A stretch of 64,000 nt of DNA from the NCBI GenBank assembly GCA_037142735.1, contig JBAXAB010000002.1:11988-75987 (forward strand), written 5' to 3'. Shown in pieces: positions 13,179-40,963 of the stretch. This DNA comes from a bacterium. GTDB taxonomy: Bacteria > Patescibacteriota > Minisyncoccia > Phycocordibacterales > CAIZLB01. Each line of letters opens with the position of its first letter. Positions within the stretch are counted from its first letter, which is position 1. A model generated the notes under the pieces. That model was not told where the DNA came from. It was given only the letters and a program-made list of their open reading frames with translations, and did not search any database. The position numbers and the translations under genes were made by a program.

Positions 13179-13198
13179 GGTGTTTTTGTTTTCTGAGT

Positions 13199-24792: not shown

Positions 24793-24804
24793 GGGTTTTG
24801 TACT

Positions 24805-25158
24805 ATGTTGCCAAAAAAACAAAGACTAACTTCTGTTGAAATAGAAGAGGTTATGATCAAAGGAAAGCCACTCTTTTCTGATTTTTTTGTGGTTAAATTC
24901 ATAAAAAACCACACATTAGAGATTGCGCAGGGTTTTAAGATCTCAGCTGTGTCTCCAAAAAAACCTTTTTCCACAGCCGCTCTTCGTAACAAGGCTCGCC
25001 GTAGAATATACTCTGCTCTAACTTCTTTTTTGGAGACACAAAAACCAAAATCAGGACTTCTAATTGCTATTGTTGGAAATAAAAAAGTCCTGGATATTCC
25101 CCTTTCTGACTTAAGTTTCTCTCTAGAGCAGACTTTCAGAAAAGGAGGTATACTGTAG
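24805..25158 (+). CDS. rnpA: ribonuclease P protein component
   Basis: 117 aa, basic, RnpA-like; rpmH-rnpA-yidC synteny. Confidence 0.8.
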   Translation: MLPKKQRLTSVEIEEVMIKGKPLFSDFFVVKFIKNHTLEIAQGFKISAVSPKKPFSTAALRNKARRRIYSALTSFLETQKPKSGLLIAIVGNKKVLDIPLSDLSFSLEQTFRKGGIL

Positions 25159-25161
25159 CCC

Positions 25162-25896: not shown

Positions 25897-25899
25897 AAA

Positions 25900-27312: not shown

Positions 27313-27369
27313 TACGGATATTATATCATTAATCTAAAAGCAAAATAAATAGTTTGTGCACTACGGATT

Positions 27370-28671
27370 TTATTTTGCCGGACCTACATATGTATACACA
27401 TATGTAGGCAGGCCTCTTCTGTCTCCAACCTTACTTCCCCAGTTTGATGTTGTATAGTCGCCCTTTGTCATTAGTCCTGTATTTGAGTTGTTTGCTATTA
27501 TCTGCCCATTGGTCCCAACAATTCCGGCGTGCCCAAATGTTCCTTGTGTTGGAGAAACTACTATATCCCCGGGTTGTGCGTCTGTTAGTCCTCCTGGCAC
27601 CAGCTTCCAATCAGGGTTCTGACCAAGCGCTTCAGCAAGGTTTGCTGTGCTCGCTCCTCCCCCTGCTTGTTTACCTGTGGCTTTTAATGTAACTGTGTTT
27701 ACTCCGTCAGCACACCCAACTCTATCGGAGGAACAAAAGTCTGATTGGTGTGTACCTACGGAATTTTCAGCTGTTCTTGCGATCGCTTCTCTTCCAGAAG
27801 ATCCGCTTATATCAGCAGAGCCTGTATTTGCAGCCGCTAAACTGCCCGGAACAGAGGCTGATGTTCCAGCTGAGGCAACACTTGTGCCCGCCCCAACACT
27901 TCCAAGTGCTGTCGTCGCCTTCGCATCCAACGAACAATTCGTCAACGCAGGATTGATTGTATTAAGTATCAACCATGTACCCAACGCTAAGGCTAAACCA
28001 AACAAAGCATTATCAACCTTTGTCCTCCCTTCTGACTTACCAAACAGTGAATCTGTTGTTGCATATTGAAAGCCACCAATCACAATCATGACTACAGCCA
28101 ACATTCCTGCTAGTGCAATACCAATACGAAACCAAGAGTTTAACAACTTACACAGAGAGTTACTGTCTTGGGTGATTTGATATATCTTTCCTTTGCTCTC
28201 GTCTGTTCCTATAAATGTACCAACAGGTGCAAGAAGTGTGTAGTTACAGATTCCGTTTTTGCAGATGTTGGTGGAAGTGTCTTTGTAAGTTGGGGTAGGG
28301 TTTTTTTCTGCTTGTGCTGCATAATAGCGAGAGTCTGGGTACATGTTTGGCACCAGGCTGTCTGCGGGTTTCGCCAAGTAAGCACTATAGTCAAAGTTTG
28401 ATGTGGGAGAAGGGCTCATTGTAGGACTTCCCCCTAGTTTGTCTGGACCGGCAACCACTGTTCCTGCAGCGTTTGATGTGTCAACGTTCAGTCGTTGCGT
28501 AGTGTAGGGTAGTTTTACACTAGTGACCGCAGGAGCATTTTCTTTTATGTCTGGTAGCGGTGGCAAGGGTGATATTACATCTTGCTGAGCCAGAACAGAA
28601 ATGGGTGTAACTAAAAGGAGTAGTAAAACAGTTGAAAATATTAACTTTAAATTAAAGAAACTTTTATTCAC
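27370..28671 (-). CDS. VirB2/TrbC-like pilin module fused to C-terminal CHAP peptidoglycan hydrolase domain
   Basis: signal peptide; NGICNYTLLAPVG (compare VirB2 NNICTFILGPFG) then two TM helices separated by a charged loop; C-terminus has CHAP-type Cys...His (FCSSDRVGCADG ... GHAGIVG). Confidence 0.55.
   Translation of the reverse strand: MNKSFFNLKLIFSTVLLLLLVTPISVLAQQDVISPLPPLPDIKENAPAVTSVKLPYTTQRLNVDTSNAAGTVVAGPDKLGGSPTMSPSPTSNFDYSAYLAKPADSLVPNMYPDSRYYAAQAEKNPTPTYKDTSTNICKNGICNYTLLAPVGTFIGTDESKGKIYQITQDSNSLCKLLNSWFRIGIALAGMLAVVMIVIGGFQYATTDSLFGKSEGRTKVDNALFGLALALGTWLILNTINPALTNCSLDAKATTALGSVGAGTSVASAGTSASVPGSLAAANTGSADISGSSGREAIARTAENSVGTHQSDFCSSDRVGCADGVNTVTLKATGKQAGGGASTANLAEALGQNPDWKLVPGGLTDAQPGDIVVSPTQGTFGHAGIVGTNGQIIANNSNTGLMTKGDYTTSNWGSKVGDRRGLPTYVYTYVGPAK
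27911..28175. repeat. 265-bp nucleotide-identical repeat, copy 1
   Basis: identical to 29315-29579; similarity continues more loosely for about 110 bp beyond. Confidence 0.85.
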
Positions 28672-28716
28672 TTTTTTATTATATCAAAAATAAACAAAAT
28701 AAGTTTATGTAAAAAA

Positions 28717-30216
28717 CTACTCTCCGCGGTTTGCAGGTCCCCAGTAACCGTTTGGCCCACTGATATATCCCCTCTCTTGTATTACTCTTTTCATTATGTC
28801 TACACTGGATTTAATACTTAAGATCGGGTCACCTAGAACATCTTGTGGGGTGACTCCGTTATTTCTTGCAACTACTATTACCTCAGGGTCTCTTACACTA
28901 AGTGAAAACAACCCTTCTGAAGAAAATGAGGATTTTCCGTCCAGCTTGTGTGCAACAGTGTTGTCTTTCGCATTGAATCCTGTTGTCTCTTTGTTTGCAA
29001 TGCTTACAAATAAGCTTGCCCATTGGTCCTGGGTTGGATTTCCATTTGGAAAATATTTTGCTGAGTCTGAAGGACTTAAATTCATTATTCCAGAATCTTT
29101 AATATCCTGTATTAAAGCCTCGTTCCATGTTTGGTCTGGAAACATTAGACCAGCTTGGGTGTTGGCTACTATAGACCCTGGGCCTTTTACACCATAAGAA
29201 GCACCTGATCCTAAGTCCAATGTTCCGTTTGTTGCATTTCTCATTACTGTCCCGCCCGCCAGGGCCCCTGTCATCATTCCGTCACTGACTGTCGCCACCG
29301 TACTATTAATCGCCGTCGTCGCCTTCGCATCCAACGAACAATTCGTCAACGCAGGATTGATTGTATTAAGTATCAACCATGTACCCAACGCTAAGGCTAA
29401 ACCAAACAAAGCATTATCAACCTTTGTCCTCCCTTCTGACTTACCAAACAGTGAATCTGTTGTTGCATATTGAAAGCCACCAATCACAATCATGACTACA
29501 GCCAACATTCCTGCTAGTGCAATACCAATACGAAACCAAGAGTTTAACAACTTACACAGAGAGTTACTGTCTTGGGTGAATTGATACACCGTTCCGTTGC
29601 TTTTATTCCCCAAGAACGTGCCTATTGGTGCAAGAAGTGTGTAGTTACAGATTCCGTTTTGGCAGATGTTGGCGGAGTTTGCGGTTCCGTTAGTTGTTCC
29701 ACCTTGAGTCACATTATTATTTCTACCGGTAGGCCAATTCCAGGTATCTGGACCTTGTTGGAATAGAGACTTTTCCTGTTTTACAGCTTCATCCCCAACT
29801 ATATCGCTGTTTGGAAAAGGTAACGCCCCTGTGTTGTTTGAGTACGAACCATCTAGGTTTAGGGTGTATCCTGTCCCGTCACCTGTTAAAGTGGTAGACG
29901 GTTTGCCGTCAGTGCCCAACTGCAAGTGTTGGCTGGTTATAGACGTGTTAGGTGAATATGGTGTTAAGTCTGAACCACTGAAGTCTCCATTCGCAGGTCC
30001 TGTAAGTGCTTTTGTGTCGGCCGGTTTGTTATTTGCTGTACCGCTCAACCCACCGCCTAGCACTACTGTTTTTTGGCCTGGGCCAGTAACAGCTTCGTTG
30101 GGCACTCCTTCTGGTAGTGGGGGTAGATCATCAGCTTTCGCGTAAATAGGTGTAACTAAAATTGCTAGTATATAAAAAGTGAGTATTGATTTATGTTTAA
30201 AGAAACTTTTATTCAC
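28717..30216 (-). CDS. VirB2/TrbC-like pilin module fused to C-terminal putative lysozyme-like/lytic transglycosylase domain
   Basis: paralog of 27370-28671 with the same central pilin module; different N-terminal region and a different C-terminal domain (ANKETTGF...SEGLFSLSV, tentatively SLT-like). Confidence 0.5.
   Translation of the reverse strand: MNKSFFKHKSILTFYILAILVTPIYAKADDLPPLPEGVPNEAVTGPGQKTVVLGGGLSGTANNKPADTKALTGPANGDFSGSDLTPYSPNTSITSQHLQLGTDGKPSTTLTGDGTGYTLNLDGSYSNNTGALPFPNSDIVGDEAVKQEKSLFQQGPDTWNWPTGRNNNVTQGGTTNGTANSANICQNGICNYTLLAPIGTFLGNKSNGTVYQFTQDSNSLCKLLNSWFRIGIALAGMLAVVMIVIGGFQYATTDSLFGKSEGRTKVDNALFGLALALGTWLILNTINPALTNCSLDAKATTAINSTVATVSDGMMTGALAGGTVMRNATNGTLDLGSGASYGVKGPGSIVANTQAGLMFPDQTWNEALIQDIKDSGIMNLSPSDSAKYFPNGNPTQDQWASLFVSIANKETTGFNAKDNTVAHKLDGKSSFSSEGLFSLSVRDPEVIVVARNNGVTPQDVLGDPILSIKSSVDIMKRVIQERGYISGPNGYWGPANRGE
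29315..29579. repeat. 265-bp nucleotide-identical repeat, copy 2
   Basis: identical to 27911-28175. Confidence 0.85.
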
Positions 30217-30263
30217 CTTTTTATTATATCAAATCTGACCTCTCAGTAATACCAAAAAAACTA

Positions 30264-31388
30264 TTAATAGATAAGGTCAAGTTGAGTTCCGGCCTGCTGC
30301 AGAACTTTGTCGCCATTTGAGGCAGACACATCAATTGTAGACTGGCCGCTATCTTGTTTCACTTTTTGTAACACAAGAAAATCTTGATTTTGAGGTAGGG
30401 TGTCTAATGTTGTCCCGTTTATTTTCCATACATATGGAATAGATTTTTTACTGCCAGTACTAAAGAAATATGGATAAGCTCCCATTTGTAAATCCTGGGC
30501 TCCAAAATTGTATGTTCCAATTGCTGCTGTGTTAAATATAGGTCCATAAGTTGGATGGATCTCATACATTACTAATGCGGGCTGGACCGGTCCAACATCT
30601 AGACTTCCTACACCTGTAGAATCTTTATTAAAGGGGTCATAGGCTGTCACCTCTACCGAGGTCGGTTTCGCTAGGATGGATCCTGAAAAATCATAGAAGT
30701 TTTTTCCATAACCAGATTTGTCTGCATAGTTTGTATGGTCAATTCTCCAATTATAGATGGCCTTAGAAGGTTGAATTTTTGCTCCAACATCATTTGTGAT
30801 ATTTGGCATGGCCACGAATTGCACATATGCTTCTGGTGTGTACAGAGCTTTTCCTTTATAGAAAGGGGGTGTGTATGTATTAGCTTGCCAAAGCACATCC
30901 ACATCAGAAGGTTTAAAATTGAAGTTTTTAATAACTTCTGCACCGTATTTTGGTTGAATATGAAGTTCAATTTTGTTTGATTGCCCGTCCGTCCCTGCTT
31001 TAAATATGAACTGCTTTTCACCTTGCCCCTTAAGAACGCTCTTTCCATTCATGACCCAATTTATCTGAGCGGCATCTATGTCTATTCCTCCGTATGCACT
31101 TACATTAATAGTCACCGTCTCTCCTGGTTGTGGCACCTCCGGGTTCACATCAACAGATACTTGTTCTTTGATATCAGGTTCCTTGGCGCTAAGTGGAAGT
31201 TTAGCCTGCTCCTCAGGTGACAGATTTGCGTAGGGGTTTGGTAATATCAAAACATGAGGTTCTGTAGAGGTTGCAGATGTGTTGATGTCTTGGGCTTTAA
31301 CTAAACCTGCACCAAAAAATAGAATCAAAAAAGATAAGAGAAATATAAAAAAATATTTACGAGTAAACTTTTTATTCATCGATTTCAT
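30264..31388 (-). CDS. hypothetical secreted beta-rich protein
   Basis: 374 aa with signal peptide; no catalytic motif recognised. Confidence 0.45.
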   Translation of the reverse strand: MKSMNKKFTRKYFFIFLLSFLILFFGAGLVKAQDINTSATSTEPHVLILPNPYANLSPEEQAKLPLSAKEPDIKEQVSVDVNPEVPQPGETVTINVSAYGGIDIDAAQINWVMNGKSVLKGQGEKQFIFKAGTDGQSNKIELHIQPKYGAEVIKNFNFKPSDVDVLWQANTYTPPFYKGKALYTPEAYVQFVAMPNITNDVGAKIQPSKAIYNWRIDHTNYADKSGYGKNFYDFSGSILAKPTSVEVTAYDPFNKDSTGVGSLDVGPVQPALVMYEIHPTYGPIFNTAAIGTYNFGAQDLQMGAYPYFFSTGSKKSIPYVWKINGTTLDTLPQNQDFLVLQKVKQDSGQSTIDVSASNGDKVLQQAGTQLDLIY

Positions 31389-31418
31389 TATAACACTATT
31401 TACTTGTGACCCGCATCA

Positions 31419-31862
31419 CTACTTACCAACAATCTGCTTAAGCTTCTTCCCACCAGAAATTGCGATTTTCATATATATGATTTCACAAGTCCACTTTGGA
31501 AAAGCATTCAAAACGGGTATAAAACCTACGATTCCCACAATGACAGTCACTAATCCTCTAGATCCTTTGGTAAACTTTATCCCCTTCATTTTGAACCAAA
31601 TCCAGAAACTAAGTATGGCTGCTGGAGTAATCGTGACATCTTCCAAGAATCCACCCGCAATCGGTATTAAGTTCATTAAAAAACAACCTACATCAAAGAT
31701 TATTGCTAAAATTAACATTAAGAAAAAAGTTCCCCAAGGTAGGTCTGGATCGTCATCTTTAATTACTCCTGCGGCCGCTACCTTGGCCTTAATTTTTTGA
31801 TCTGCGAGTCTCGCATCCTCCACACCAGCCATTTCTTCAATTGTTGCTTCTGCGCTACTCAT
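31419..31862 (-). CDS. hypothetical small membrane protein
   Basis: 147 aa, three to four TM helices; overlaps the upstream VirB4-like gene by 8 nt. Confidence 0.4.
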   Translation of the reverse strand: MSSAEATIEEMAGVEDARLADQKIKAKVAAAGVIKDDDPDLPWGTFFLMLILAIIFDVGCFLMNLIPIAGGFLEDVTITPAAILSFWIWFKMKGIKFTKGSRGLVTVIVGIVGFIPVLNAFPKWTCEIIYMKIAISGGKKLKQIVGK

Positions 31863-33732
31863 TTATTCTTCCGAGGGCTGACTTTAACTTGTCGCTTCGC
31901 TCTTTACCCTCTTCTATGCTTTTTGTTGCCAAGTCCTCTTTTGCTTTTTTCATCGCTAGAATTTCTGATGGTTTTGTCGTAATGATCTGTTCTTCTGTGT
32001 ACGAAGCAATGATTTTAATCGCTACGTGTTTCAGTCCTGCAAAGAAGATCCCCTCTCCTACGTCTGATTCAAGAAGTAAATATTTTTCCTCATCTGTTAA
32101 GTTGAATGTCTTTTGAACAATATCAATAGATGATGGAGACTGTTTCAAGAGAACTTGAATTGAAGAGTTGGTAATGATTGGTAATCCATATGGAGACTTA
32201 AGGAAGTCCTCAACGTCTTGTGTGATTGTTGCCATACCTAAATAATATTTTCGTCCTCTCTTTGCTAGTCCATACAAGAATGAGGCTGTGTCGTCTGATT
32301 TCATCATCCACCACGCTTCATCGATAACAAGAAGGCGTTTTTTGATTTCTTTTCGAATAGAGTTCCAAATGAAGTGCATCACGATGTACATTGCGATTGG
32401 CTTCAATTCGTCTTCCATGTCTCGAAGTGAGAACACCACGAATTTTTTATTTATGTCCACGTTTGAAGGGCGGTTGATGAAACCTGCCCACGTACCCTTT
32501 GTGTATTTTGTGAGACGTTGTGCCAGGGACTCTCCCCCTTCCATGCCAGCCAGTACCAATTCGAAATCTGACATTAGGGGCGGTTCGACTGCTGCAAAAT
32601 TTGAATCGGCGGTGATGTCTTTTAATGCATATGTTTCGCTGATGGCTCGGTCAATAATCGCATCTTCTTCAGGTGTTAATCCTCCCAACATAATTCTGAA
32701 AAGTCCCACCAAGTTAACAATGTTTGAACGTAAAATATCAGCTGGAGCTTCGTCTTCGCGTGGTACCGGCAAATCAAACGGGTTGATGTGGTGTTCAGAT
32801 GTAAGGGAGATGTTGAAATATCTTCCACCTGTCGCTTCTGCGAGGTATTCGTATTCTTTTTCAGGATCAAGAACGATTACATCTGTATCAAACATAAGGC
32901 TTCTCAAGATTTCCAGTTTTGTGGCAAAAGATTTACCAGAACCTGCCTTGGCAAAAGTCACTGAGTTGTAGTTTTCCAGAGAAAATCTATCAAACAAAAT
33001 TAAACTTGAATTGTGACGATTGATGCCATAAAGGATTCCCTTATCTGAGGTAAGGTCAAATGAAATGAATGGAAAAAGACTAGAAAGTGGTGAAGAGTTT
33101 AGTTTAGAGTGCACCAATAATTCGTCCTTTGCTATAGGTAAAATACTTCGATAACCCTGCTCTTGTTGGAAGAGTGCCGGTTTGATGTAAATAAGCGCTG
33201 ATTCAAGGATGGATTTGATCTCAGACTCGATCTTGTCCAACTCTGTTTCACTTTCTCCGTAGACGGAGATGTACAAGCCAACATCGAATAGTTTTTCTTG
33301 AGCTTGTTGCAAGTTGTCTCGCAAGGCTTCTAGGTCTTGGTACGCAGTATCGAGCATCGGGTCTCGAACCAACCCCTTCTCTTCTCGCATGTGGATCTGG
33401 CTTTGGACTTCGGCTACTTTCTTTTGAAATTGGCGAAGCACTGTAGCTGTATCAATCGGGTGAATGAATATTGAAATATCAAAAATTTTATCTAGGTTAA
33501 TGATTGGAGAAAACCAACCTTCGTTTAGAAATCTCGGGTATGAGATAACAAAAAATGTTCTCACAATCTTGTCTCCAAGGTTAAGACCTCGCGGTGTTAC
33601 CTTAAGCGCAGACGGGGCGATAATGTCCTGTAATTCTAAGACCCCCGCTTCATATATTTCCTGAGGAAGAATCGAAGTGAGCGAATTCTTTTCTTTTTCT
33701 TTTTTGGATTTTAAAAAGTCTAATATTCCCAT
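31855..33732 (-). CDS. VirB4/TrbE/CagE-like type IV secretion ATPase (C-terminal ATPase body)
   Basis: 625 aa; Walker A FAKAGSGKS, Walker B LLVIDEAWWMM, VirB4-like C-terminal motifs. Confidence 0.7.
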   Translation of the reverse strand: MGILDFLKSKKEKEKNSLTSILPQEIYEAGVLELQDIIAPSALKVTPRGLNLGDKIVRTFFVISYPRFLNEGWFSPIINLDKIFDISIFIHPIDTATVLRQFQKKVAEVQSQIHMREEKGLVRDPMLDTAYQDLEALRDNLQQAQEKLFDVGLYISVYGESETELDKIESEIKSILESALIYIKPALFQQEQGYRSILPIAKDELLVHSKLNSSPLSSLFPFISFDLTSDKGILYGINRHNSSLILFDRFSLENYNSVTFAKAGSGKSFATKLEILRSLMFDTDVIVLDPEKEYEYLAEATGGRYFNISLTSEHHINPFDLPVPREDEAPADILRSNIVNLVGLFRIMLGGLTPEEDAIIDRAISETYALKDITADSNFAAVEPPLMSDFELVLAGMEGGESLAQRLTKYTKGTWAGFINRPSNVDINKKFVVFSLRDMEDELKPIAMYIVMHFIWNSIRKEIKKRLLVIDEAWWMMKSDDTASFLYGLAKRGRKYYLGMATITQDVEDFLKSPYGLPIITNSSIQVLLKQSPSSIDIVQKTFNLTDEEKYLLLESDVGEGIFFAGLKHVAIKIIASYTEEQIITTKPSEILAMKKAKEDLATKSIEEGKERSDKLKSALGRINE

Positions 33733-33737
33733 GGTGT

Positions 33738-34382
33738 TTATTTTTGTGGTACGTGAATTGGTTTATCTACGTCGCCTGGGTTAAAGATTTTATAGAAGAC
33801 TTCAACCAGTTCTTCTGTGCCTAATTGTACAACACGAATACCACAACGAACCAATCCTTGCTGTACTACCTCGAGACGTTGAATAAGTTGACTGCGGTGT
33901 TCTTCGAAATTGGCTGTTTTGTCTGCTGACTCCTCTGCTTTACTCTTTTTTGAAAAGAAACTAGATGCCAGACTACTCTTCCCTCCTAGGATTGGTGGTG
34001 TGTATGGAATAACGATGAAAAAGTTTTTAGTCATGATGTTCGTCTGCTCTGTAAAACTTTTGATGAACTCTATATATTCACGTGTCTGTAAGCGCATTAA
34101 ATCAGTTGATTGATCCTTGTAACGAGTTTCAAGAAGGGCGATGTATGGTCGAATGTCCAAGCGTCGTGATTGAACACTGATCTGAACCGAGAAATTCAAA
34201 GAGTTTAGAAAGTTCTGGAATTGAAACGTGATAGCTTGTTGCTCATCGGCAGATTTCAATGCAAAGTTTAATGACGAAGCAAGCAAGACCGCACGCATAG
34301 ATCCGTCTTTTAAAATCAACACACCATCACGAACCTCTTTTATTGGGACAAATGATTGTGTTGGAGAAGCGTCTAGTACCAT
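33738..34382 (-). CDS. VirB4 N-terminal-domain-like protein (separate ORF)
   Basis: 214 aa ending 5 nt before the ATPase ORF start, in a different frame; pattern resembles the N-terminal region of Gram-positive VirB4 homologs. Confidence 0.4.
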   Translation of the reverse strand: MVLDASPTQSFVPIKEVRDGVLILKDGSMRAVLLASSLNFALKSADEQQAITFQFQNFLNSLNFSVQISVQSRRLDIRPYIALLETRYKDQSTDLMRLQTREYIEFIKSFTEQTNIMTKNFFIVIPYTPPILGGKSSLASSFFSKKSKAEESADKTANFEEHRSQLIQRLEVVQQGLVRCGIRVVQLGTEELVEVFYKIFNPGDVDKPIHVPQK

Positions 34383-34403
34383 ATTGTTAAAAGTATAACA
34401 TTT

Positions 34404-34877
34404 TTAAAATGGTTTTGTATTTGGAACAGTGCTGCCATGAATCATACCTCCTTGTTCGTGTGAATATATAGTGTCATTTATGTCCAAGCTCCAGCTCAAT
34501 TCTTTTAATTTACTGTCAGACAATTTTGGCACAGCGTTCCATGGCATAAAACTTGCAATAGCTTTTTCCTCGATCTCCTTTTCTGTTTGTGGTTTCTTCT
34601 CTTCCTTTTTCCATATATAAAGCCGATTTTTAGTGAAATATTCAAAGGCAGATTGAATGACGTCAATCATGGGGCGTCCGTTCACTTTGTAGAATGCCAT
34701 CATGATACCTAAAATTATAAAGGGTATGGCAGCAACTATGCCAATAAAAGTTGGAAGTAATTTGTACGCAAGAAAAGCTGCCCCTGCCCCTCCAGCCAAG
34801 TATGCGAATTGCTTAAATGTAAATGGTCCGAAAATTTTATCCTCTACTTCGATGAACTGAGGGACTTGGTACTTCAT
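34404..34877 (-). CDS. PrgI/VirB3-like small membrane protein
   Basis: N-terminus MKYQVPQFIEVEDKIFGPFTFKQFAYLAGGAGAAFL, characteristic of the PrgI family; two TM helices. Confidence 0.5.
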   Translation of the reverse strand: MKYQVPQFIEVEDKIFGPFTFKQFAYLAGGAGAAFLAYKLLPTFIGIVAAIPFIILGIMMAFYKVNGRPMIDVIQSAFEYFTKNRLYIWKKEEKKPQTEKEIEEKAIASFMPWNAVPKLSDSKLKELSWSLDINDTIYSHEQGGMIHGSTVPNTKPF

Positions 34878-34894
34878 GCAGGGATTATACCAGA

Positions 34895-35785
34895 TTAAAT
34901 AACTTCCTTGTATGGATCTGTACTTGGAGATGAGACTACAACTGATGAACTTTTTTGAGCGATGGGGTCAACGGTCAATTTTGGAACAACAGCGCCTGTT
35001 GTTTTTGCTGGCAAGATGACTGGCGTTTCCGCAGGGAGATTGCTTGGTTTTTCAGCCTTAACTTCAGGTGTTTTTGGTGATAGAGGTGCGTGGTGAATTG
35101 CCTTTTCTATTTCGTTTGCATCGTTCCATTTGACCTTGTTGGAACCACCTCCCATCACATCAGCATAGCTCTTTGAGCCGGAAACCTTTTTTATGGGGCT
35201 ATTCTCCATTTTAAATGGTTCAGCAGGTTTAATTTGTTGTAGTGAAGAGTGAGGGTTTTCAATTCCATGGAGAATATCCGCATGAGTCAAGGTTGTTCCA
35301 TTGTTGTGCTTCTTAGGCTCTTCGTCTGTAATTGATTCGTTGTATAAAGACTTTGGGTGGAATTCCTGAGGCGATGGAACTGATGGATTTATGGCTACGT
35401 TTGTAGTTTTGTCCTCCCCTTCTATTTTAGACTCGTCAATTTCAATGTCTTTATAGTCTTCCAACATTGTATTTATGTAATCTTGGATAGATTTTCTGAC
35501 AGGCTCTATGATGTTTGTATTAGTGTCGTCTGTTAGTTCTTTGGCCGTTACAGGAGCAAGTTTGAAGTCCGAAACCAATTTTGCGGTAAAGTCCGCTGGC
35601 TTCATGTCAGCGAACATAACTCGGAAAGTCATGTCTTCTAGGTCGTCGGCCTGGTCAAGATGAAGCTTGTACTTGTTTATCAGAGACGTGAATCCTCCTG
35701 TGAAGTTGAATTCAAGAACCACAGAGGCGATCTCGGGTGGTAACTTGTCTGTGCTTTCGAATAAATAATCAAATCCTTTTTTCAT
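34895..35785 (-). CDS. hypothetical protein
   Basis: 296-aa ORF in the operon, Pro/Lys/Glu-rich C-terminal half. Confidence 0.4.
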   Translation of the reverse strand: MKKGFDYLFESTDKLPPEIASVVLEFNFTGGFTSLINKYKLHLDQADDLEDMTFRVMFADMKPADFTAKLVSDFKLAPVTAKELTDDTNTNIIEPVRKSIQDYINTMLEDYKDIEIDESKIEGEDKTTNVAINPSVPSPQEFHPKSLYNESITDEEPKKHNNGTTLTHADILHGIENPHSSLQQIKPAEPFKMENSPIKKVSGSKSYADVMGGGSNKVKWNDANEIEKAIHHAPLSPKTPEVKAEKPSNLPAETPVILPAKTTGAVVPKLTVDPIAQKSSSVVVSSPSTDPYKEVI

Positions 35786-35794
35786 AGTGGTTTT

Positions 35795-38101
35795 TTATAT
35801 TTTACCGTCCTCTTCTTGTTGTTTTGTAAAGGCGTTTTCAACTGAACGTAATTTTGCAGCAAGTTCTTTGAGTTTCTGTTTGTATGTTGTACTTCCAGGC
35901 CTGTTTGTGTTGTATGCCTGCACTATTTGCGATGAATCTGGCACCTTTACTTTGCCAAATCTGTATGCCGTCTCCCGAGTTGTTAAGTCTGTTGAGAGGG
36001 TAAGATCTTCTCCGTCAGTAATTGCATCCAACATGTCAATTGCTAACTTTTCTTTTACAGGATCGATTTTTTCTAAGTAATTTCCTGGGTTTAATGGATC
36101 TTCTTTTCGCATTTCTAATCCTAGGACCTTCCCTACTCCCTTTGCGTTACTTAGACGGTTTTTGTCTTTACGCTCTTCACTTGCAGCGCTTGCTTTTGCT
36201 TGTTTTGCTTTACCTCTTTGATAACCAGAATAGGCGGTTCCACCAAAGAATGTTTTTACCGCATCAACACCGGCTCCAACCCCTGTAACAGGATTACCAG
36301 AAGAATCAAGCCCGACCCCTCGAAGTCCTCTGCCTTTTGCTGCCTTCTTTCTTGTCTTATAAGCCGCATCACTCTCCCATCTGCCCTGTGGAGAAACACC
36401 AGAAAGATATGCATCCTTTTCTTTAAGTGCCGCAGTCTTTCTATCGCGCACATCTTGGTACCCTGTCAGCTTCCCAACACTGCCTAGAAATTTCTCTGTT
36501 CCTGGTATTGGAATAAACCTTGATGCTGACCTCATGGCCTCTGACTCTGCAATTTTTGTTGCAGCTTGCCCGAGTGTTCTTGTTGCCATTCCTTTTGTTC
36601 CAAACCAATTCCCCATTCCAAATCTCTTGTCCATAAAACTATGTGCAAAGTCAGCACCCTTCACACCAAGACTTTTTGATATTAACAAGACTCCGACTAA
36701 CGCTCCCATAATCATACAGAAACTAACTAACCCGCTGATACTTTGTCCATTCAAGATCATTGCTCCAAAGTTTATACTAGTACCCCCAACCCCCTTCATC
36801 GCTTTTATTAATATATATAAAAGCCCAACGAAAACAGGTGCAAATATACAGTTATCTATAAGTTTGTGTAGCCAATTTTTAAAGTGTTTCTCGGTCTCTG
36901 GTAGCGCTCTCGAAGCAAAAGCAATTGAAGAGAACATTAACAAGAACATCAGGGTGAGCGTTCTGCTTAGAAACATAAAAGCACCAGCAAAAAATACAAC
37001 TGATGTTCCTAGGATAAATACTGAACCAACAAAGGCTAATAATGCGAGTCTCCAATATGGCGCTGCCCCACCGCTTGTAACAGTGCCTGTTACTGAACCG
37101 TTGCTTAGGCTTGTTCCAGCGCCTGCATTCGTTAAAAGAGAGGCATTAGAATACTTATCCTGAGAGGTAGAATAAACACTCTGTAAATTTACCACTTGCA
37201 TGAATTGTTCAGTTATTCCTGTCGGGGCACTGGTGTTGCTGCCATTGGCTGGAGTAATGAGGTTGTAAAACTGTATGGCAACTATGTTACTCGCGTCGAC
37301 AACCACCTTTGCACCAAAAAGGCTAAAGTTTACCAAAACTGCAGTCACTATAATCTGGGCAATAATACTCTTGTCTTTATATGTCGAAGTTCCCAGTATC
37401 ATATTTAAAGCAACATACAGTAGTATGAATATGTAACCGAGATTTGTGATGTCTCTCAATATATTCCAGCCCACATTTACTATAGGAAGTTCCTTCAATA
37501 GTTTGGCCATGTTCAAACTGTAGTTGACTGATAGATCAAATAACATTGCGGCAAACCATAAAACCAAAGACATTAACCATAGTACAAATTGTCCAATCTT
37601 CATGATTCCACAGGGTAACCATGTTCCAGGGCTCCACCAGGCACAACCGTTATCGTCGGTTGGGACATTGTCTAGTATTTTTTTTTCTGTGTTGTTGTCA
37701 GGGTTCGGAGTATTTACTGTACTGTGCATGCTAGGAGCAATTGTTCCTGCTGGTTTTGCTAGGTAAGGACTAAGGTCTTCCCCGCTCCCCGTTGTGTCGG
37801 AAGGAGTCTGGGGATTATTAATTAAATTATTAAGTTTTGCAATATCTTCCGCCGTGAAAGGTCCACCGTTTACGAGGCCGCCCGCCGTTCCGTTTCCTCC
37901 AGCTCTGCCTCCTGTATTTTCCTGCTGAGCAGCCGCATCAGAGGCCTTTACGTTTGGGGCCAGAAGCCCACTTTCTGCTGGGGCTCCTCCTCCTCCTATA
38001 GGTAATGCCTGCGCCAATGCCAAATTACCACCTGTGTTTGTTAACAGTATAAGCAGGCCTAAACCAAATAACAGAGTGTTTTTAATAAATAGTTTTTTCA
38101 T
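35795..38101 (-). CDS. VirB6/TrbL-like polytopic membrane protein with Gly-rich N-terminal region and long C-terminal tail
   Basis: 768 aa; signal peptide, Gly/Ala-rich segment, at least six TM helices, charged C-terminal extension. Confidence 0.45.
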   Translation of the reverse strand: MKKLFIKNTLLFGLGLLILLTNTGGNLALAQALPIGGGGAPAESGLLAPNVKASDAAAQQENTGGRAGGNGTAGGLVNGGPFTAEDIAKLNNLINNPQTPSDTTGSGEDLSPYLAKPAGTIAPSMHSTVNTPNPDNNTEKKILDNVPTDDNGCAWWSPGTWLPCGIMKIGQFVLWLMSLVLWFAAMLFDLSVNYSLNMAKLLKELPIVNVGWNILRDITNLGYIFILLYVALNMILGTSTYKDKSIIAQIIVTAVLVNFSLFGAKVVVDASNIVAIQFYNLITPANGSNTSAPTGITEQFMQVVNLQSVYSTSQDKYSNASLLTNAGAGTSLSNGSVTGTVTSGGAAPYWRLALLAFVGSVFILGTSVVFFAGAFMFLSRTLTLMFLLMFSSIAFASRALPETEKHFKNWLHKLIDNCIFAPVFVGLLYILIKAMKGVGGTSINFGAMILNGQSISGLVSFCMIMGALVGVLLISKSLGVKGADFAHSFMDKRFGMGNWFGTKGMATRTLGQAATKIAESEAMRSASRFIPIPGTEKFLGSVGKLTGYQDVRDRKTAALKEKDAYLSGVSPQGRWESDAAYKTRKKAAKGRGLRGVGLDSSGNPVTGVGAGVDAVKTFFGGTAYSGYQRGKAKQAKASAASEERKDKNRLSNAKGVGKVLGLEMRKEDPLNPGNYLEKIDPVKEKLAIDMLDAITDGEDLTLSTDLTTRETAYRFGKVKVPDSSQIVQAYNTNRPGSTTYKQKLKELAAKLRSVENAFTKQQEEDGKI

Positions 38102-38102
38102 C

Positions 38103-39230
38103 TTATTTACCAGAGCCTAAAGCTTCATTTAATGCGACCTTGATCAAGCTATTAACAATTGCCTCAACAACCTGATCAAATTTTTGCGCCAAAACGAGAC
38201 GGTCTTTCCCAAGGTTTAAGGTTTTTTCCAGTTGCCCTTGAATAACTATACCCGGAGTGACGGTTTTACAAGACGTTGCGTCACCTGGCTTACTGCACTT
38301 TTTATAGTTCAGAAATCCTTTGTTAAGTCCCAATTCAAGAGTTGCCGTATTGTTTTTCGCTGTAATTCTTCCATGTAATTCATCGTTCGACATAATCCAT
38401 GCCCCTACGCCATTATTTTGCGGGTTCTGCGTCATCGAATACCAACCATTCCACCCGCCTGAAGAAAAATCTGCCCCCGTGGTAAATTTATCAATATTAC
38501 CTACTACTTTAGTAAGGGAACATTTAGCACTGTTTTTAAAATTACTACCATTGCTATAATAATTAGATAACCCAACAGAGATCTGCAACTTAAACGGTGA
38601 ACATAGGTCCACCCCACCGTTTGTAATGTTTTTGGCCAAACTGCTCACAAAACTTCCTGCCTCTCTGTCAGCTAGGTCTTGAAAAAAGTTTCCAGTGTTT
38701 TCAATAAATGAAGGATTACCATTGAATCCACTGTTTGCCCATCTAATAGTGCTGTCAGCGATGTATGAAATTACACTATTTACAATACAGTATGCGATTG
38801 CATCCCAGCCTGGTGTGTCTATAATTCCACTACCGAAAGCGAAATGTCCAATTTGAGCATTGTTGGCATTCTTCTGGTTATTGTGCGTTGAATCGTCGTC
38901 TACGCTAACTTTACGACTGATAGTGCTTACGGTGTCTCCAATTGTGTCAGTCACTTTATTCAAGACACTGGAAATGGCTGAACTCAGAAGGCTGGATAAA
39001 ATCTGTCCTGCCGAGCAAGAGAGAGATTCTGTAGCGATGCTAGAATAGTTCCCATTAGAGCTACTGCTTTTCGACACCCCGTTGCTGTAGGCTGATTCCT
39101 GGCTGTCTCCATTTGCTTTTTGAGCGAATGCTCCGATTGGAAAAGACGCACAGAAAATTGCAATAACTAAAACCGATATTTTTAGCGTCTTAATTCCCTG
39201 TTGCATTGTTTTGTTGTGTGCTTTGGTCAT
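38103..39230 (-). CDS. hypothetical secreted Ser-rich protein
   Basis: 375 aa with N-terminal signal/TM, Ser/Asn-rich. Confidence 0.4.
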   Translation of the reverse strand: MTKAHNKTMQQGIKTLKISVLVIAIFCASFPIGAFAQKANGDSQESAYSNGVSKSSSSNGNYSSIATESLSCSAGQILSSLLSSAISSVLNKVTDTIGDTVSTISRKVSVDDDSTHNNQKNANNAQIGHFAFGSGIIDTPGWDAIAYCIVNSVISYIADSTIRWANSGFNGNPSFIENTGNFFQDLADREAGSFVSSLAKNITNGGVDLCSPFKLQISVGLSNYYSNGSNFKNSAKCSLTKVVGNIDKFTTGADFSSGGWNGWYSMTQNPQNNGVGAWIMSNDELHGRITAKNNTATLELGLNKGFLNYKKCSKPGDATSCKTVTPGIVIQGQLEKTLNLGKDRLVLAQKFDQVVEAIVNSLIKVALNEALGSGK

Positions 39231-40134
39231 TAATTTTCAGGTTCATGAACTGATTCCAGAAGGCGCCAGAATCATTTGTTGAAAATATTATATCATTCTT
39301 CTTAAAGTATTGACTGATATTTATTAACACCTGTGATTGAGATTGACCCACCTCTTTGACAGTTTTTAATCCAAGTAGAGATTTGACCGGATCGGTTTCT
39401 TGAAGAGCTACCATTTTCATACCTTCTGACGCAAGAACAAAAGAATTTGCAAGGCTTGATTGCTCCACATTCATTTCAATAGGGGCTTTAACTTTCATGA
39501 TGTTGTAGCCTATTTGGCTGTATATTTTAGCCATTTCAGTAAGATTGTTAGCATATTTCTCCTTATTATTAGCCACTATTTGGTAATTTTGAACGATCAC
39601 ATCTGCCAAGTTGTTACCGTACTGTTTAATCTGGTCTTTCGAAGTCGGCACGAAAAAATGGACTTGGTTTGCAAGGAATTCCGGTTGAGGTAGATCTGAT
39701 TGGTTAATTTGTCCCATAACCACGCTGGTTACATCAGCTGTCGACTGGTCGGTTACCCCATCTGTTTGTTGGGCATACATATAGCCTGAGAATATCTTTT
39801 TGGTCACTCGGTCAGACACAGAATCTCCTGGCTGAGGTGCAAAAGGGTCACTAGAAGTAGCAAGTCCTTCGATGTTTGAGTTGTCTTGTGCGTCTTGTAT
39901 CGCATTCGTAACTACGTTTCCAAGGTCTGTTGTTGTTCCTTGTAATCCAATAATAGCGTCATTTGGGTGGAGGGCTCGTTGAGCAATCGCTATTTTGTAT
40001 GCTACCGAGCCTAAAATAATGGAAAAACATACTGCCCCAAGAATGAGAATAGTCTTACTGGGTGCACTATCGGTGCGTGAGTTTTTATTCTGAAAGTTTT
40101 TTTGAAGAGTCTGCTGATTTTTTTTCAGATCCAT
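39190..40134 (-). CDS. hypothetical bitopic membrane protein (VirB8-like topology)
   Basis: 314 aa; cytoplasmic N-terminus, single TM helix, Gln/Asn-rich extracytoplasmic domain; first gene of the operon. Confidence 0.35.
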   Translation of the reverse strand: MDLKKNQQTLQKNFQNKNSRTDSAPSKTILILGAVCFSIILGSVAYKIAIAQRALHPNDAIIGLQGTTTDLGNVVTNAIQDAQDNSNIEGLATSSDPFAPQPGDSVSDRVTKKIFSGYMYAQQTDGVTDQSTADVTSVVMGQINQSDLPQPEFLANQVHFFVPTSKDQIKQYGNNLADVIVQNYQIVANNKEKYANNLTEMAKIYSQIGYNIMKVKAPIEMNVEQSSLANSFVLASEGMKMVALQETDPVKSLLGLKTVKEVGQSQSQVLINISQYFKKNDIIFSTNDSGAFWNQFMNLKINDQSTQQNNATGN

Positions 40135-40180
40135 TCTGAAATTATATCATAAGCTGTTCAGAAAGAATGATGGGAAATGT

Positions 40181-40954
40181 CTAATTGAGGATATCTGAAA
40201 GTGCAAGCCAATCAGAAACTGACAATTCCTCAGGCCTGCTCTTGGTTGAAAGATTTTGGTTCACTGATTTTACCTGTTCGTCAGTCACGCCAAGAGTGTT
40301 CCCTATTTGCTTACGTCTTTGGCCGAAGGCTTTTTTAAGTGTAAGGAAAAACTTTTCTTCAATCTCTTTCGTGATGTTATTTTTGTGTATATCATTTATT
40401 AAAATAATAGCAGAATCAACGTTTGGAATCGGTCGAAATGCACCACGGGGCACTCGATCTATAATGCGAGGAGTTCCATACAATTTTACACTCATGGATA
40501 AAATACTCTCTTTTCCATCTTTGGTTGTGATTCTCTCGGCTACTTCTTTTTGTACCAAAAGTACGATTTGTTCTGGTTTATGGTCAGCTCCTAAAAACAT
40601 TTCCATGATCATGCCGGTGATGTAGTACGGAATGTTTGCAATCAGTTTATATTTTCTATCCCCAACTAATTTTTGGATGTCTACTTTTAAGATATCATCG
40701 TGGACTAAAATTAATTTCCCATTTTTAATTTGTTCTGAATATTTTTGTTGGAGAATTGGAATAAGACGGTCATCTTTTTCTATGGCAAAAATTGTTGCCC
40801 CTGTGGCCAAAAGTTTTTCTGTAAGCGCCCCTTCTCCTGGTCCAATCTCGATTCCAATTTCATCTTGTGTTAATCCTGAGGCTTCAGCGATTTGCCGCAG
40901 TGCTTTGTCTGATTGAAGAAAGTTTTGACCAAGTGATTTTTTTGCAAAGATCAT
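40181..40954 (-). CDS. rsmA: 16S rRNA (adenine1518/1519-N6)-dimethyltransferase
   Basis: SAM-binding IEIGPGEGALT motif; KsgA-like length. Confidence 0.85.
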   Translation of the reverse strand: MIFAKKSLGQNFLQSDKALRQIAEASGLTQDEIGIEIGPGEGALTEKLLATGATIFAIEKDDRLIPILQQKYSEQIKNGKLILVHDDILKVDIQKLVGDRKYKLIANIPYYITGMIMEMFLGADHKPEQIVLLVQKEVAERITTKDGKESILSMSVKLYGTPRIIDRVPRGAFRPIPNVDSAIILINDIHKNNITKEIEEKFFLTLKKAFGQRRKQIGNTLGVTDEQVKSVNQNLSTKSRPEELSVSDWLALSDILN

Positions 40955-40963
40955 GTTGATGTT

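What the first reader, a model, noticed from the sequence alone, without database searches (positions are those of the whole stretch)
27370..40134. Type IV secretion-like operon without coupling protein or relaxase
Twelve co-directional minus-strand genes run between ksgA and yidC. They encode a VirB4-like ATPase (Walker A/B present), a PrgI/VirB3-like protein, a VirB6-like polytopic protein, two VirB2/TrbC-like pilin paralogs, and several secreted or bitopic proteins of unknown function. No VirD4, relaxase, oriT-like sequence, integrase or flanking repeats are present in the window. This argues against a conjugative element. It favours a chromosomally fixed T4SS-like surface apparatus, plausibly for cell-cell or host contact in a reduced-genome organism. 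Several components are unannotatable: the 296-aa, 375-aa, 314-aa and 374-aa proteins and the 470-aa beta-propeller protein.
Basis: partly seen in the sequence, partly recalled or inferred. Interest (0 to 1): 0.75.

Follow-up and report, generated by a model that had tools for sequence, protein, structure and literature searches.

The report
Chromosomal Patescibacteria type IV secretion operon
This is the chromosomal, relaxase-less type IV secretion-like gene cluster that ultra-small Patescibacteria (here class Paceibacteria) carry beside their replication origin; it was published in 2023-2025, so the finding is real but not new, although its two pilin-like proteins carry cell-wall-cutting enzyme domains, a detail I did not find reported.

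Summary
Twelve tightly packed minus-strand genes (25900-40134) lie between uvrD-ksgA and the converging rpmH-rnpA-yidC genes, next to dnaA. They encode:
- a VirB4 ATPase split into a TrsD-like N-domain protein (G214) and the ATPase (F625; NCBIfam CD1110-type, above cutoff; Walker A and B present);
- a PrgI/VirB3 protein;
- a probable extended VirB6;
- two VirB2-like pilin-module proteins;
- six further envelope or cytoplasmic proteins with no family assignment.

No VirD4, relaxase, element-type integrase or flanking repeats are present in the window. tblastn with the pCF10 VirD4 and relaxase found neither in 80 related loci.

Gene order is essentially the same in 44 of 44 Paceibacteria genomes with full flanks. 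VirB4 is more conserved (about 80% identity) than DnaA (58%).

It is already published: Wang et al. 2023 and Quinonero-Coronel et al. 2025 (PMC12102498), the latter including the dnaA/ksgA/rnpA neighbourhood.

Added here:
- The two "pilins" are fusions of a pilin hairpin to an NlpC/P60-CHAP-like domain and to an SLT lytic transglycosylase domain.
- They share a 261-nt identical core.
- In relatives the C-terminal domain is highly variable.
- L314 is not VirB8-like.

Function remains inferred.

The parts
39190..40134 (-). L314: bitopic membrane protein with one N-terminal TM segment (residues 28-46) and an all-helical extracytoplasmic bundle. It is not VirB8-like.
   Evidence: - Hydropathy.
- AF2 model: mean pLDDT 65.6, with residues 150-300 mostly above 80.
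- The family is present in 36 of 37 related loci at this position.
- No Pfam or NCBIfam family.
38103..39230 (-). K375: secreted or bitopic, Cys-containing, mostly helical protein of unknown fold. Conserved motifs: W..N.GFNGNP.F and TPG.VIQ.
   Evidence: - 79 homologues, all unnamed or from Patescibacteria/Parcubacteria; one carries a fused SLT domain.
- The AF2 model is low-confidence (pLDDT 60, pTM 0.35).
- tblastn finds it in 38 of 44 loci.
35795..38101 (-). J768: probable extended VirB6. It has a signal/N-terminal segment, an external region of about 150 aa, at least 6 TM segments, and a hydrophilic basic C-terminal tail of about 290 aa.
   Evidence: - Hydropathy.
- 7 of 41 orthologues hit Pfam TrbL/VirB6, best 6e-5.
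- hhalign against pCF10 PrgH gives probability 23% over 117 columns.
- The window protein itself has no Pfam hit.
34895..35785 (-). I296: protein without TM segments. It has a conserved acidic N-terminal domain of about 100 aa (helical is my reading of the consensus, not predicted) and a variable low-complexity tail. Function unknown.
   Evidence: - No TM segment.
- An iterated HMM finds the N-domain in 53 of 54 positional orthologues between VirB6 and PrgI.
34404..34877 (-). H157: PrgI/VirB3-family membrane protein.
   Evidence: - Pfam PrgI 2.3e-10, 41.3 bits against a cutoff of 27.
- Present in 44 of 44 loci at 49% median identity.
33738..34382 (-). G214: TrsD-like protein, equivalent to a free-standing VirB4 N-terminal domain.
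   Evidence: - NCBIfam: conju_CD1110 profile positions 2-119, VirB4_CagE positions 4-164, TrsD 1.6e-4.
- PF26593 TraC-like, precomputed.
31855..33732 (-). F625: VirB4 ATPase (MPF_FATA / CD1110 type) lacking the N-terminal domain.
   Evidence: - NCBIfam conju_CD1110 2.8e-108, 363 bits against a cutoff of 325, profile positions 185-733.
- 26% identity to pCF10 PrgJ residues 215-772, E 8e-41; Walker A and B present.
- 76-87% identical in 80 Paceibacteria genomes.
31419..31862 (-). E147: small membrane protein with 2-3 TM segments; its start overlaps the end of virB4 by 8 nt. Function unknown.
   Evidence: - Hydropathy.
- The family is found in 47 of 69 related loci in the same slot.
30264..31388 (-). 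D374: secreted or N-terminally anchored protein, probably made of Ig-like beta-sandwich domains.
   Evidence: - Weak Ig-like hits across the family: BiPBP_C in 7 of 41, plus PKD_3, Ig_3, TIG and Big_2.
- Phage Hoc 0.0035.
- Present in 44 of 44 loci.
28717..30216 (-). C499: signal peptide, low-complexity region, VirB2-like two-helix pilin module, Gly/Ser/Thr linker, and a C-terminal SLT-type lytic transglycosylase domain.
   Evidence: - T4SS_pilin family.
- The C-terminal profile hits PDB 6ta9 (SLT domain) at 8e-7 and EtgA at 0.038.
- 2 of 3 domain homologues hit Pfam SLT at 8e-4.
- The invariant Glu aligns with the ES motif of the SLT structure.
27370..28671 (-). B433: paralogue of C499 with the same signal peptide and an identical pilin module. 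Its C-terminal domain is NlpC/P60-CHAP-like instead.
   Evidence: - Pfam CHAP 0.0035 and NlpC_P60 0.049.
- In the profile search against PDB, seven of the eight best hits are NlpC/P60-family peptidoglycan endopeptidases or cell-wall hydrolases, at 0.0015-0.046.
- Cys and His are conserved with the L054 orthologue.
- 89 aa and 261 consecutive nt are identical to C499.
25900..27312 (-). A470: N-terminally anchored extracytoplasmic protein, possibly a beta-propeller. It is the last gene of the unit and ends 3 nt from the converging yidC.
   Evidence: - One TM segment at residues 6-24.
- Weak family hits only: DPPIV_N in 2 members, PD40, DUF5050, and TolB at E 0.3.
- Present in 44 of 44 loci in the same position.
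40181..42970 (-). uvrD/pcrA and ksgA: housekeeping genes directly upstream on the same strand, with gaps of 9 and 46 nt. They may be co-transcribed with the cluster.
   Evidence: - Pfam hits.
- Conserved upstream position.
- No promoter or terminator signal above chance.

Best explanation
The locus is the Paceibacteria version of the Patescibacteria-clade type IV secretion system. It is a vertically inherited chromosomal derivative of the monoderm (MPF_FATA) mating-pair-formation machinery that has lost its link to conjugation.

**Shown**
- A two-piece VirB4 ATPase: G214 (TrsD-like N-domain) plus F625.
- PrgI/VirB3 (H157).
- A probable extended VirB6 (J768).
- Two proteins (B433, C499) in which a VirB2-like pilin hairpin sits between a signal peptide and an extracytoplasmic peptidoglycan hydrolase. 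One hydrolase is NlpC/P60-CHAP-like and the other is SLT. Together these are the two catalytic activities of the Gram-positive VirB1 (PrgK/TraG).
- Six further conserved partners: L314, K375, D374 and A470 (predicted extracytoplasmic), E147 (membrane) and I296 (no TM segment).

**Inferred mechanism**
1. VirB4, docked on VirB3 and VirB6, powers extraction of the pilin modules from the membrane and their assembly into a channel or short filament.
2. The tethered hydrolases open the cell wall for this structure.
3. The fast-evolving external proteins contact the host cell.
4. With no coupling protein or relaxase in the neighbourhood, the cargo is not a nicked plasmid strand. I favour a host-contact conduit for protein or other macromolecule traffic that the epibiont needs to grow. 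The direction of transfer is unresolved.
For: **Identity of the parts:**

**Topology:** a signal peptide, TM1, a positively charged loop (KSEGRTK) and TM2 place both hydrolase domains outside the membrane.

**Chromosomal fixation:** gene order is essentially the same in 44 of 44 genomes.

**Purifying selection on the motor:** median identity to the window is
- VirB4 80%
- G214 63%
- DnaA 58%
- UvrD 53%
- KsgA 46%
- YidC 43%

The external parts are far less conserved, at 23-41%.

**No VirD4 or relaxase** in the window or in 80 related loci.

**Literature**
- The system is essential in S. epibionticum, with no recognisable coupling protein or relaxase (PMC10633639).
- Clade-wide description (PMC12102498).
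- T4SS pilins are among the most highly expressed unknown genes in cultured Paceibacterales (PMC10936435).
- Tubular structures suggested to be T4SS pili were seen at the host interface of a cultured relative (bioRxiv 10.64898/2026.06.21.733656).
Against: - No substrate, direction of transport or pilus has been shown for any Patescibacteria T4SS. One review calls its role 'completely unknown' (PMC11665869).
- No VirB8-like protein was found. L314 is a helical bundle and the K375 model is too poor to judge.
- VirB6 membership rests on weak hits.
- The CHAP/NlpC assignment is sub-threshold.
- It is unknown whether a pilin carrying a C-terminal domain of about 140-200 aa can polymerise, or whether it is cleaved first.
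- Only 64 kb of the genome was seen, so an unlinked VirD4 may exist.
Confidence: 0.7

Rival explanations
1. The machine is an importer. Like the ComB system of Helicobacter or the archaeal Ced system, it would take up host nucleic acids or other building blocks, which organisms unable to make nucleotides must obtain from outside.
For: - No coupling protein is needed for ComB-type uptake.
- F625 has a weak match to the CedB DNA-import ATPase (2.2e-9, far below cutoff).
- comM lies 4 kb away.
- A review proposes T4SS-mediated nucleotide acquisition, because comEC is dispensable while the T4SS is essential (PMC11665869).
- A 2026 preprint reports host-RNA feeding and ancient VirB4 acquisition.
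Against: - No DNA- or RNA-binding or nuclease component was recognised in the operon.
- The closest characterised relatives of the ATPase are exporters, the CD1110/PrgJ conjugation ATPases.
- Import has not been shown for any MPF_FATA system.
Confidence: 0.2
2. It is an ordinary conjugation or mobilisation apparatus. Its coupling protein, relaxase and oriT would be encoded elsewhere in the genome.
For: - VirD4-like genes occur, mostly far from virB4, in most Patescibacteria genomes (PMC12102498).
- Only 64 kb of this genome could be read.
Against: - Relaxases were found in only 103 of 3,035 Patescibacteria genomes.
- The unlinked t4cp was not essential in S. epibionticum, while the T4SS genes were.
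- The fixed position beside oriC in 44 of 44 genomes, and 80% VirB4 identity exceeding that of DnaA, do not fit a mobile element.
- No integrase of the element type and no flanking repeats.
Confidence: 0.05
3. It is only an adhesion and cell-wall-remodelling device. The pilin-like hairpins would be plain membrane anchors that hold hydrolases at the division or attachment site, and nothing would be translocated.
For: - Gram-positive VirB1 proteins are also membrane-anchored.
- The Ig-like D374 and propeller-like A470 look like surface-binding modules.
- No substrate is known.
Against: - A strongly conserved hexameric-type VirB4 motor, together with VirB3 and VirB6, is hard to explain without membrane extraction or translocation work.
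- The pilin module is far more constrained than a simple anchor would need to be: 62 of 65 orthologues still match the pilin HMM.
Confidence: 0.1

Closest known systems
Patescibacteria-clade T4SS (Southlakia epibionticum SEML1_0006-0019; surveyed by Quinonero-Coronel et al. 2025, PMC12102498)
   Same: - VirB4 with an adjacent TrsD.
- PrgI/VirB3, VirB6 and VirB2-like pilin genes.
- Peptidoglycan hydrolases next to virB4.
- No recognised VirB8.
- No linked VirD4 or relaxase.
- Chromosomal position beside dnaA, ksgA, rnpA and rpmH.
   Different: - Saccharimonadia carry arrays of 2-11 small, divergent pilins. This clade usually has one pilin-module gene (two in this window).
- In this clade the pilin module is usually followed by a C-terminal extension of 100 aa or more. 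The few extensions that could be identified are hydrolases, and the extensions are very variable.
- I did not find that fusion described in the papers read.
Gram-positive conjugative T4SS of pCF10 (PrgH, PrgI, PrgJ, PrgK, PrgL, PcfC), MPF_FATA class
   Same: - The ATPase belongs to the same NCBIfam family as PrgJ: 26% identity, E 8e-41.
- A PrgI-family protein is present.
- SLT and CHAP-type hydrolase activities are present, as in PrgK.
- The envelope is a monoderm one.
   Different: - No PcfC (VirD4), relaxase or PrgL/VirB8-like protein.
- No LPXTG adhesins such as PrgB.
- VirB4 is split in two.
- The hydrolases sit on VirB2-like hairpins, which Gram-positive systems lack.
- The locus is chromosomal and not mobile.
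Coupling-protein-less T4SSs: Helicobacter ComB (DNA uptake), Bordetella Ptl and Brucella VirB (protein export)
   Same: They operate without a relaxase (ComB, Ptl) and without a dedicated VirD4. They show that a T4SS can serve purposes other than conjugation. This rests on my own background knowledge and on PMC12857230.
   Different: Those are diderm systems with a VirB7/9/10 outer-membrane core. None of those proteins is recognisable here, and the ATPase belongs to a different VirB4 class.

Membership tests
Type IV secretion system (general) | VirB4-family ATPase with intact Walker A and B motifs | tested here: met
   - NCBIfam conju_CD1110 363 bits against a cutoff of 325.
- Walker A AKAGSGKS at residue 261 and Walker B LLVIDE at residue 467.
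Monoderm MPF_FATA-type T4SS | PrgI/VirB3-like small membrane protein next to virB4 | tested here: met
   - Pfam PrgI 41.3 bits against a cutoff of 27.
- Separated from virB4 only by the TrsD-like gene.
Monoderm MPF_FATA-type T4SS | VirB6/PrgH polytopic membrane protein | tested here: inconclusive
   - At least 6 TM segments.
- 7 of 41 orthologues hit TrbL/VirB6, best 6e-5.
- hhalign against PrgH gives 23% probability.
- The window protein alone has no hit.
Monoderm MPF_FATA-type T4SS | VirB8/PrgL-like bitopic protein with an NTF2-like fold | tested here: not met
   - L314, the best candidate by topology, folds as a helical bundle.
- The K375 model is uninformative.
- hhalign of the J768, pilin, K375, D374, L314 and A470 families against PrgL and PrgD was negative.
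- D374, A470, I296 and E147 were not modelled.
Monoderm MPF_FATA-type T4SS | VirB1-type peptidoglycan hydrolase (SLT and/or CHAP) | tested here: met
   - SLT domain in C499: PDB 6ta9 at 8e-7, with the invariant Glu aligned to its ES motif.
- NlpC/P60-CHAP-like domain in B433, supported more weakly.
Conjugative element (ICE or plasmid T4SS) | VirD4/TcpA coupling protein linked to the locus | tested here: not met
   - None among the 45 window ORFs scanned.
- tblastn with PcfC gave no hit in the window or in 80 loci with flanks of up to 10 kb.
- The rest of the genome could not be tested.
Conjugative element (ICE or plasmid T4SS) | Relaxase, an integrase of the element type, and attachment repeats | tested here: not met
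   - No relaxase.
- The only recombinase is Xer-type and lies 8.7 kb away.
- No flanking repeats.
- No adjacent tRNA gene.
Patescibacteria-clade T4SS (PMC12102498) | TrsD-like gene adjacent to virB4, VirB2-like pilin gene(s) nearby, and a chromosomal site near dnaA, ksgA, rnpA and rpmH | tested here: met
   - G214 matches TrsD and the VirB4 N-domain.
- Pilin family.
- Neighbours: dnaA 23181-24512, rpmH 24658-24792, rnpA 24805-25158, yidC and ksgA.
Patescibacteria-clade T4SS (PMC12102498) | VirB4 falls inside the monophyletic Patescibacteria clade nested in MPF_FATA | not tested
   - No phylogeny was built.
- Indirect support only: the 80 best relatives carry Patescibacteria-type or unclassified names, at 76-87% identity.

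The most novel reading that the evidence does not exclude
The VirB2-like module would be a constant 'handle' onto which this clade swaps variable enzymatic 'heads'.

**Evidence for swapping**
- Fifty C-terminal extensions of 100 aa or more from related genomes fall into 27 unrelated sequence clusters. Among the 65 full-length family members scanned (including the two window proteins), the recognisable C-terminal domains are SLT, CHAP, NlpC/P60, two M15 peptidases and a subtilase.
- The two window paralogues share 261 consecutive identical nucleotides across the handle but have unrelated heads. That pattern fits recent recombination or gene conversion.

**Proposed reading**
If the heads stay attached when the pilin polymerises, or are released at its tip, the system would be an enzyme-armed pilus. 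It would deliver host-specific cell-wall-degrading effectors to the host surface, in the manner of polymorphic toxin systems. The heads would then not be housekeeping VirB1 analogues acting on the bacterium's own wall.
Probability: 0.2. Interest if true: 0.65.

Novelty: already known. Interest (0 to 1): 0.3.

Why it matters
Patescibacteria are a large share of bacterial diversity and depend on host cells. Their T4SS-like system is one of the few machines shown to be essential for that lifestyle, and its cargo and direction are unknown.

This locus adds no new kind of system. It does give a clean, complete Paceibacteria example with a defined 12-gene conserved set. It shows a motor more conserved than DnaA beside fast-evolving external parts. 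It also yields a testable idea: that the pilin-hydrolase fusions mark the host-facing, specificity-determining end of the machine.

Tried and rejected
3. **Profile searches against PDB sequences** for the J768, K375, D374, L314 and A470 families gave nothing significant.
4. **hhalign of six family alignments against 14 pCF10 proteins.** Only J768 against PrgH gave anything, at 23% probability. An earlier run timed out.
5. **Homologue search with the C499 C-terminal 200 aa** returned nothing, not even the protein itself. The domain was identified instead from two orthologues in the fetched loci.
6. **The two largest clusters of pilin C-terminal extensions** show H..D...H motifs that suggest LAS/M15 zinc peptidases. 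Profile searches gave only E of about 0.1 to Sonic hedgehog, or nothing, so this is not claimed.
7. **Promoter and terminator scans** were not above the shuffled expectation.
8. **The afdb50 fold library** was unavailable.
9. **The 23-nt repeat at 27318 and 39285** lies inside the operon at 87% identity. I treat it as chance, not as attachment sites.

Full report
**What is in the sequence**

Between 25900 and 40134 the minus strand carries twelve ORFs. Their neighbour spacing runs from a 41-nt overlap to a 57-nt gap.

- Upstream on the same strand lie uvrD/pcrA (40964-42970) and ksgA (40181-40954).
- Downstream the operon converges on yidC (25162-25896). yidC is preceded by rnpA (24805-25158) and rpmH (24658-24792), and beyond them lie dnaA (23181-24512, minus strand) and dnaN.
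- The cluster therefore sits about 1-16 kb from the canonical dnaA/rpmH origin region.
- The rest of the window is housekeeping: polA, ruvABC, fpg, tyrS, a class A PBP, CCA-adding enzyme, RNase Y, nusA, clpP, trigger factor and five tRNA genes.
- GC content in the cluster (0.39-0.43) is close to that of its surroundings (0.37-0.39).

The finding's start coordinate (27370) omits the 470-aa gene it mentions. The unit begins at 25900.

**Recognisable components**

- **F625** is a VirB4 ATPase.
  - Pfam P-loop_TraG scores 3.6e-26.
  - NCBIfam 'VirB4-like conjugal transfer ATPase, CD1110 family' scores 363 bits against a cutoff of 325, but covers only profile positions 185-733.
  - It is 26% identical to pCF10 PrgJ residues 215-772 (E 8e-41) and has Walker A (AKAGSGKS) and Walker B (LLVIDE) motifs.
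- **G214** supplies the missing N-terminal domain. It is the upstream gene and matches positions 2-119 of the same profile, as well as the TrsD family. VirB4 is therefore split in two.
- **H157** is a PrgI/VirB3 protein that scores above the Pfam cutoff.
- **J768** is a probable extended VirB6.
  - It has a signal-like segment, an external region of about 150 aa, at least six hydrophobic segments and a basic tail of about 290 aa.
  - It has no Pfam hit itself, but 7 of 41 orthologues match TrbL/VirB6.
  - hhalign against PrgH gives 23% probability.

**The two 'pilins'**

B433 and C499 each match Pfam T4SS_pilin only below threshold. At family level, 62 of 65 orthologues match T4SS_pilin (best 2.4e-10) and 8 match TrbC/VirB2. 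The pilin module is real.

Neither protein is a small pilin. Each has this layout:
1. a signal peptide;
2. a low-complexity region;
3. a two-helix pilin hairpin whose loop is positively charged;
4. a Gly/Ser/Thr-rich linker;
5. a C-terminal domain of about 140-200 aa, which this topology places outside the membrane.

The C-terminal domains differ:
- **C499** carries an SLT-type lytic transglycosylase domain.
  - A three-sequence profile hits the solved SLT domain 6ta9 at 8e-7 and the type III secretion transglycosylase EtgA at 0.038.
  - Two of the three homologues match Pfam SLT.
  - The invariant Glu aligns with the ES motif of the SLT structure.
- **B433** carries an NlpC/P60-CHAP-like domain.
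  - Pfam gives CHAP 0.0035 and NlpC/P60 0.049.
  - In a profile search, seven of the eight best PDB hits are NlpC/P60-family peptidoglycan endopeptidases or cell-wall hydrolases, at 0.0015-0.046.
  - The Cys and His residues are conserved.

SLT plus CHAP are the two catalytic domains of the Gram-positive VirB1 proteins (PMC12102498). Here each sits on its own VirB2-like hairpin.

The two genes are tandem duplicates with a mosaic pattern of identity:
- 77% identity over the 5' end and signal peptide;
- an N-terminal region that can hardly be aligned;
- an 89-aa core that is identical, with 261 consecutive identical nucleotides;
- unrelated 3' ends.

An identical core with no synonymous differences, set between diverged flanks, points to recent gene conversion or recombination rather than selection alone.

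**The unassigned members**

- **K375** has 79 homologues, all unnamed or labelled as Patescibacteria. It gave a low-confidence, mostly helical model with no fold match.
- **D374** gives repeated weak Ig-like hits across its family.
- **A470** gives a few weak beta-propeller hits (DPPIV_N, PD40, TolB).
- **I296** has no TM segment. Its acidic N-terminal domain of about 100 aa is found in 53 of 54 positional orthologues.
- **E147** is a small protein with 2-3 TM segments, found in 47 of 69 loci.
- The L314 family is found in 36 of 37 loci.

Most of the twelve genes therefore recur at the same positions across the clade. E147 is the least constant (47 of 69 loci), and the pilin-module gene is usually single rather than duplicated.

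**Context in other genomes**

- VirB4 retrieved 80 species-level genomes at 76-87% amino-acid identity. Those with informative names are Paceibacteria/Parcubacteria lineages (Taylor-, Zambryski-, Campbell-, Nomura- and Kaiserbacteria). Many automated records are instead labelled 'uncultured Candidatus Saccharibacteria'.
- In all 44 loci with full 10-kb flanks the order is uvrD-ksgA-[L]-K-J-[I]-H-G-VirB4-[E]-D-pilin(s)-A, then converging yidC, then dnaA. The bracketed genes are detectable only with profiles.
- Median identity to the window across the same genomes:

| Protein | Median identity |
|---|---|
| VirB4 | 80% |
| G214 | 63% |
| DnaA | 58% |
| UvrD | 53% |
| PrgI | 49% |
| KsgA | 46% |
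| YidC | 43% |
| External proteins | 23-41% |

- The loci were chosen by VirB4 similarity, which inflates the VirB4 figure somewhat. The contrast is still large.
- tblastn with pCF10 PcfC (VirD4) and PcfG (relaxase) finds nothing in the window or in the 80 loci. PrgJ hits all 81.
- The single tyrosine recombinase in the window (48816-49793) matches XerC, XerD and XerA end to end and lies 8.7 kb away.
- There are no flanking repeats and no adjacent tRNA gene.

**Comparison with the literature**

All of this matches a published system.
- Wang et al. 2023 (PMC10633639) found an apparent T4SS (SEML1_0006-0019) essential for epibiotic growth of Southlakia epibionticum. It has essential pilins and no recognisable coupling protein or relaxase.
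- Quinonero-Coronel et al. 2025 (PMC12102498) found VirB4 in 2,417 of 3,035 Patescibacteria genomes.
  - The VirB4s form a monophyletic clade nested in MPF_FATA.
  - They occur with TrsD, PrgI, VirB6 and VirB2-like pilins, and VirB8 is scarce.
  - Relaxases occur in only 103 genomes.
  - The site is near dnaA, dnaN, rnpA, ksgA and rpmH in Paceibacteria and Microgenomatia.
- A 2025 review lists these systems as a new branch of the superfamily (PMC12857230).
- The function is described as completely unknown, with effector export or nutrient and nucleic-acid import both proposed (PMC11665869).
- T4SS pilins are among the most highly expressed unknown genes in cultured Paceibacterales (PMC10936435).
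- Tubular structures suggested to be T4SS pili were seen at the host interface of a cultured relative.

**What may be new**

- In 63 pilin-module ORFs from related loci, 50 have a C-terminal extension of 100 aa or more.
- With the two window proteins in place of two of the ORFs, 50 such extensions fall into 27 BLASTP clusters, 21 of them singletons.
- Among the 65 full-length family members scanned, the recognisable C-terminal domains are SLT, CHAP, NlpC/P60, two M15 peptidases and a subtilase.
- The papers I read count VirB2 and VirB1 homologues separately and do not mention this fusion or its variability. They do note that VirB1 homologues are linked to virB4 mainly in Paceibacteria, which may reflect these same proteins.
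- A conserved pilin 'handle' with swappable enzymatic 'heads' resembles polymorphic effector systems. The alternative is that these are simply membrane-tethered VirB1 analogues, which are prone to non-orthologous replacement.

**Mechanism and verdict**

Shown:
- the parts list;
- the external topology of the hydrolase domains;
- chromosomal fixation;
- strong constraint on the motor and rapid change in the external parts;
- absence of linked conjugation genes.

Inferred:
1. VirB4, made of G214 and F625 and docked on VirB3 and VirB6, drives assembly of the pilin modules into a channel or filament.
2. That structure passes through a wall opened by the tethered hydrolases.
3. D374, A470, K375 and L314 form the wall-spanning or host-contact parts.
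4. The structure serves macromolecule traffic with the host. The direction is unresolved.

The finding is real and correctly interpreted, but it is already known. Interest is modest. The pilin-hydrolase fusion is the one lead worth following.

Noticed in passing
window 27889-28188 and 29293-29592: The two pilin-module genes share a 300-nt repeat at 95% identity. Within it, 261 consecutive nucleotides (89 codons) are identical, while the flanking coding sequence is diverged or unrelated. This suggests recent gene conversion or cassette recombination.
   Followed up: partly
L006:13882-15306: One related genome encodes a single 474-aa protein with two near-identical pilin modules in tandem, followed by the same SLT domain as C499. 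This could be a real internal duplication or an assembly artefact.
   Followed up: no
window 11300-13300: A segment with higher GC (0.43-0.475, against about 0.38 nearby). It holds a YkuD-type L,D-transpeptidase (11430-12353) and an Ala/Pro-rich membrane protein with no family (12561-13178). A hairpin-like palindrome near 13200-13258 matches miRNA-hairpin models on both strands. This may be a horizontally acquired piece.
   Followed up: partly
window 48816-49793 (+): A XerC/XerD/XerA-type tyrosine recombinase lies next to an exonuclease III-family gene.
   Followed up: yes
window 6917-7513 (+) and 13517-15196 (+): A separate type IV pilus system is represented by a prepilin with an N-terminal methylation motif and a PilB/T2SSE-type assembly ATPase. 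Type IV pili are the other surface machine reported as essential in Saccharibacteria.
   Followed up: no
window 54427-56263 (-): Shikimate dehydrogenase and prephenate dehydratase genes are present. This is unexpected for a lineage usually described as lacking amino-acid biosynthesis.
   Followed up: no
window 24513-42970: If oriC lies in the dnaA-rpmH spacer, the whole uvrD-ksgA-T4SS unit (14 genes) is transcribed towards the origin, head-on to replication, and this orientation is kept in 44 of 44 relatives. GC skew gives no clear origin signal in this window.
   Followed up: no
window 43267-44313 (+) and 44288-45796 (-): A LysM + M23 peptidase gene diverges from uvrD and is followed by comM. 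The M23 gene is next to the cluster in only 6 of 44 relatives, so it is probably not part of the system.
   Followed up: partly
window 28717-29319 (C499 C-terminal domain): A search of 5.8 billion proteins with this 200-aa segment returned no hit at all, not even the source protein. The neighbouring genes L314 and K375 were found at 100% identity. The gene may be missing or called differently in the public annotation.
   Followed up: no
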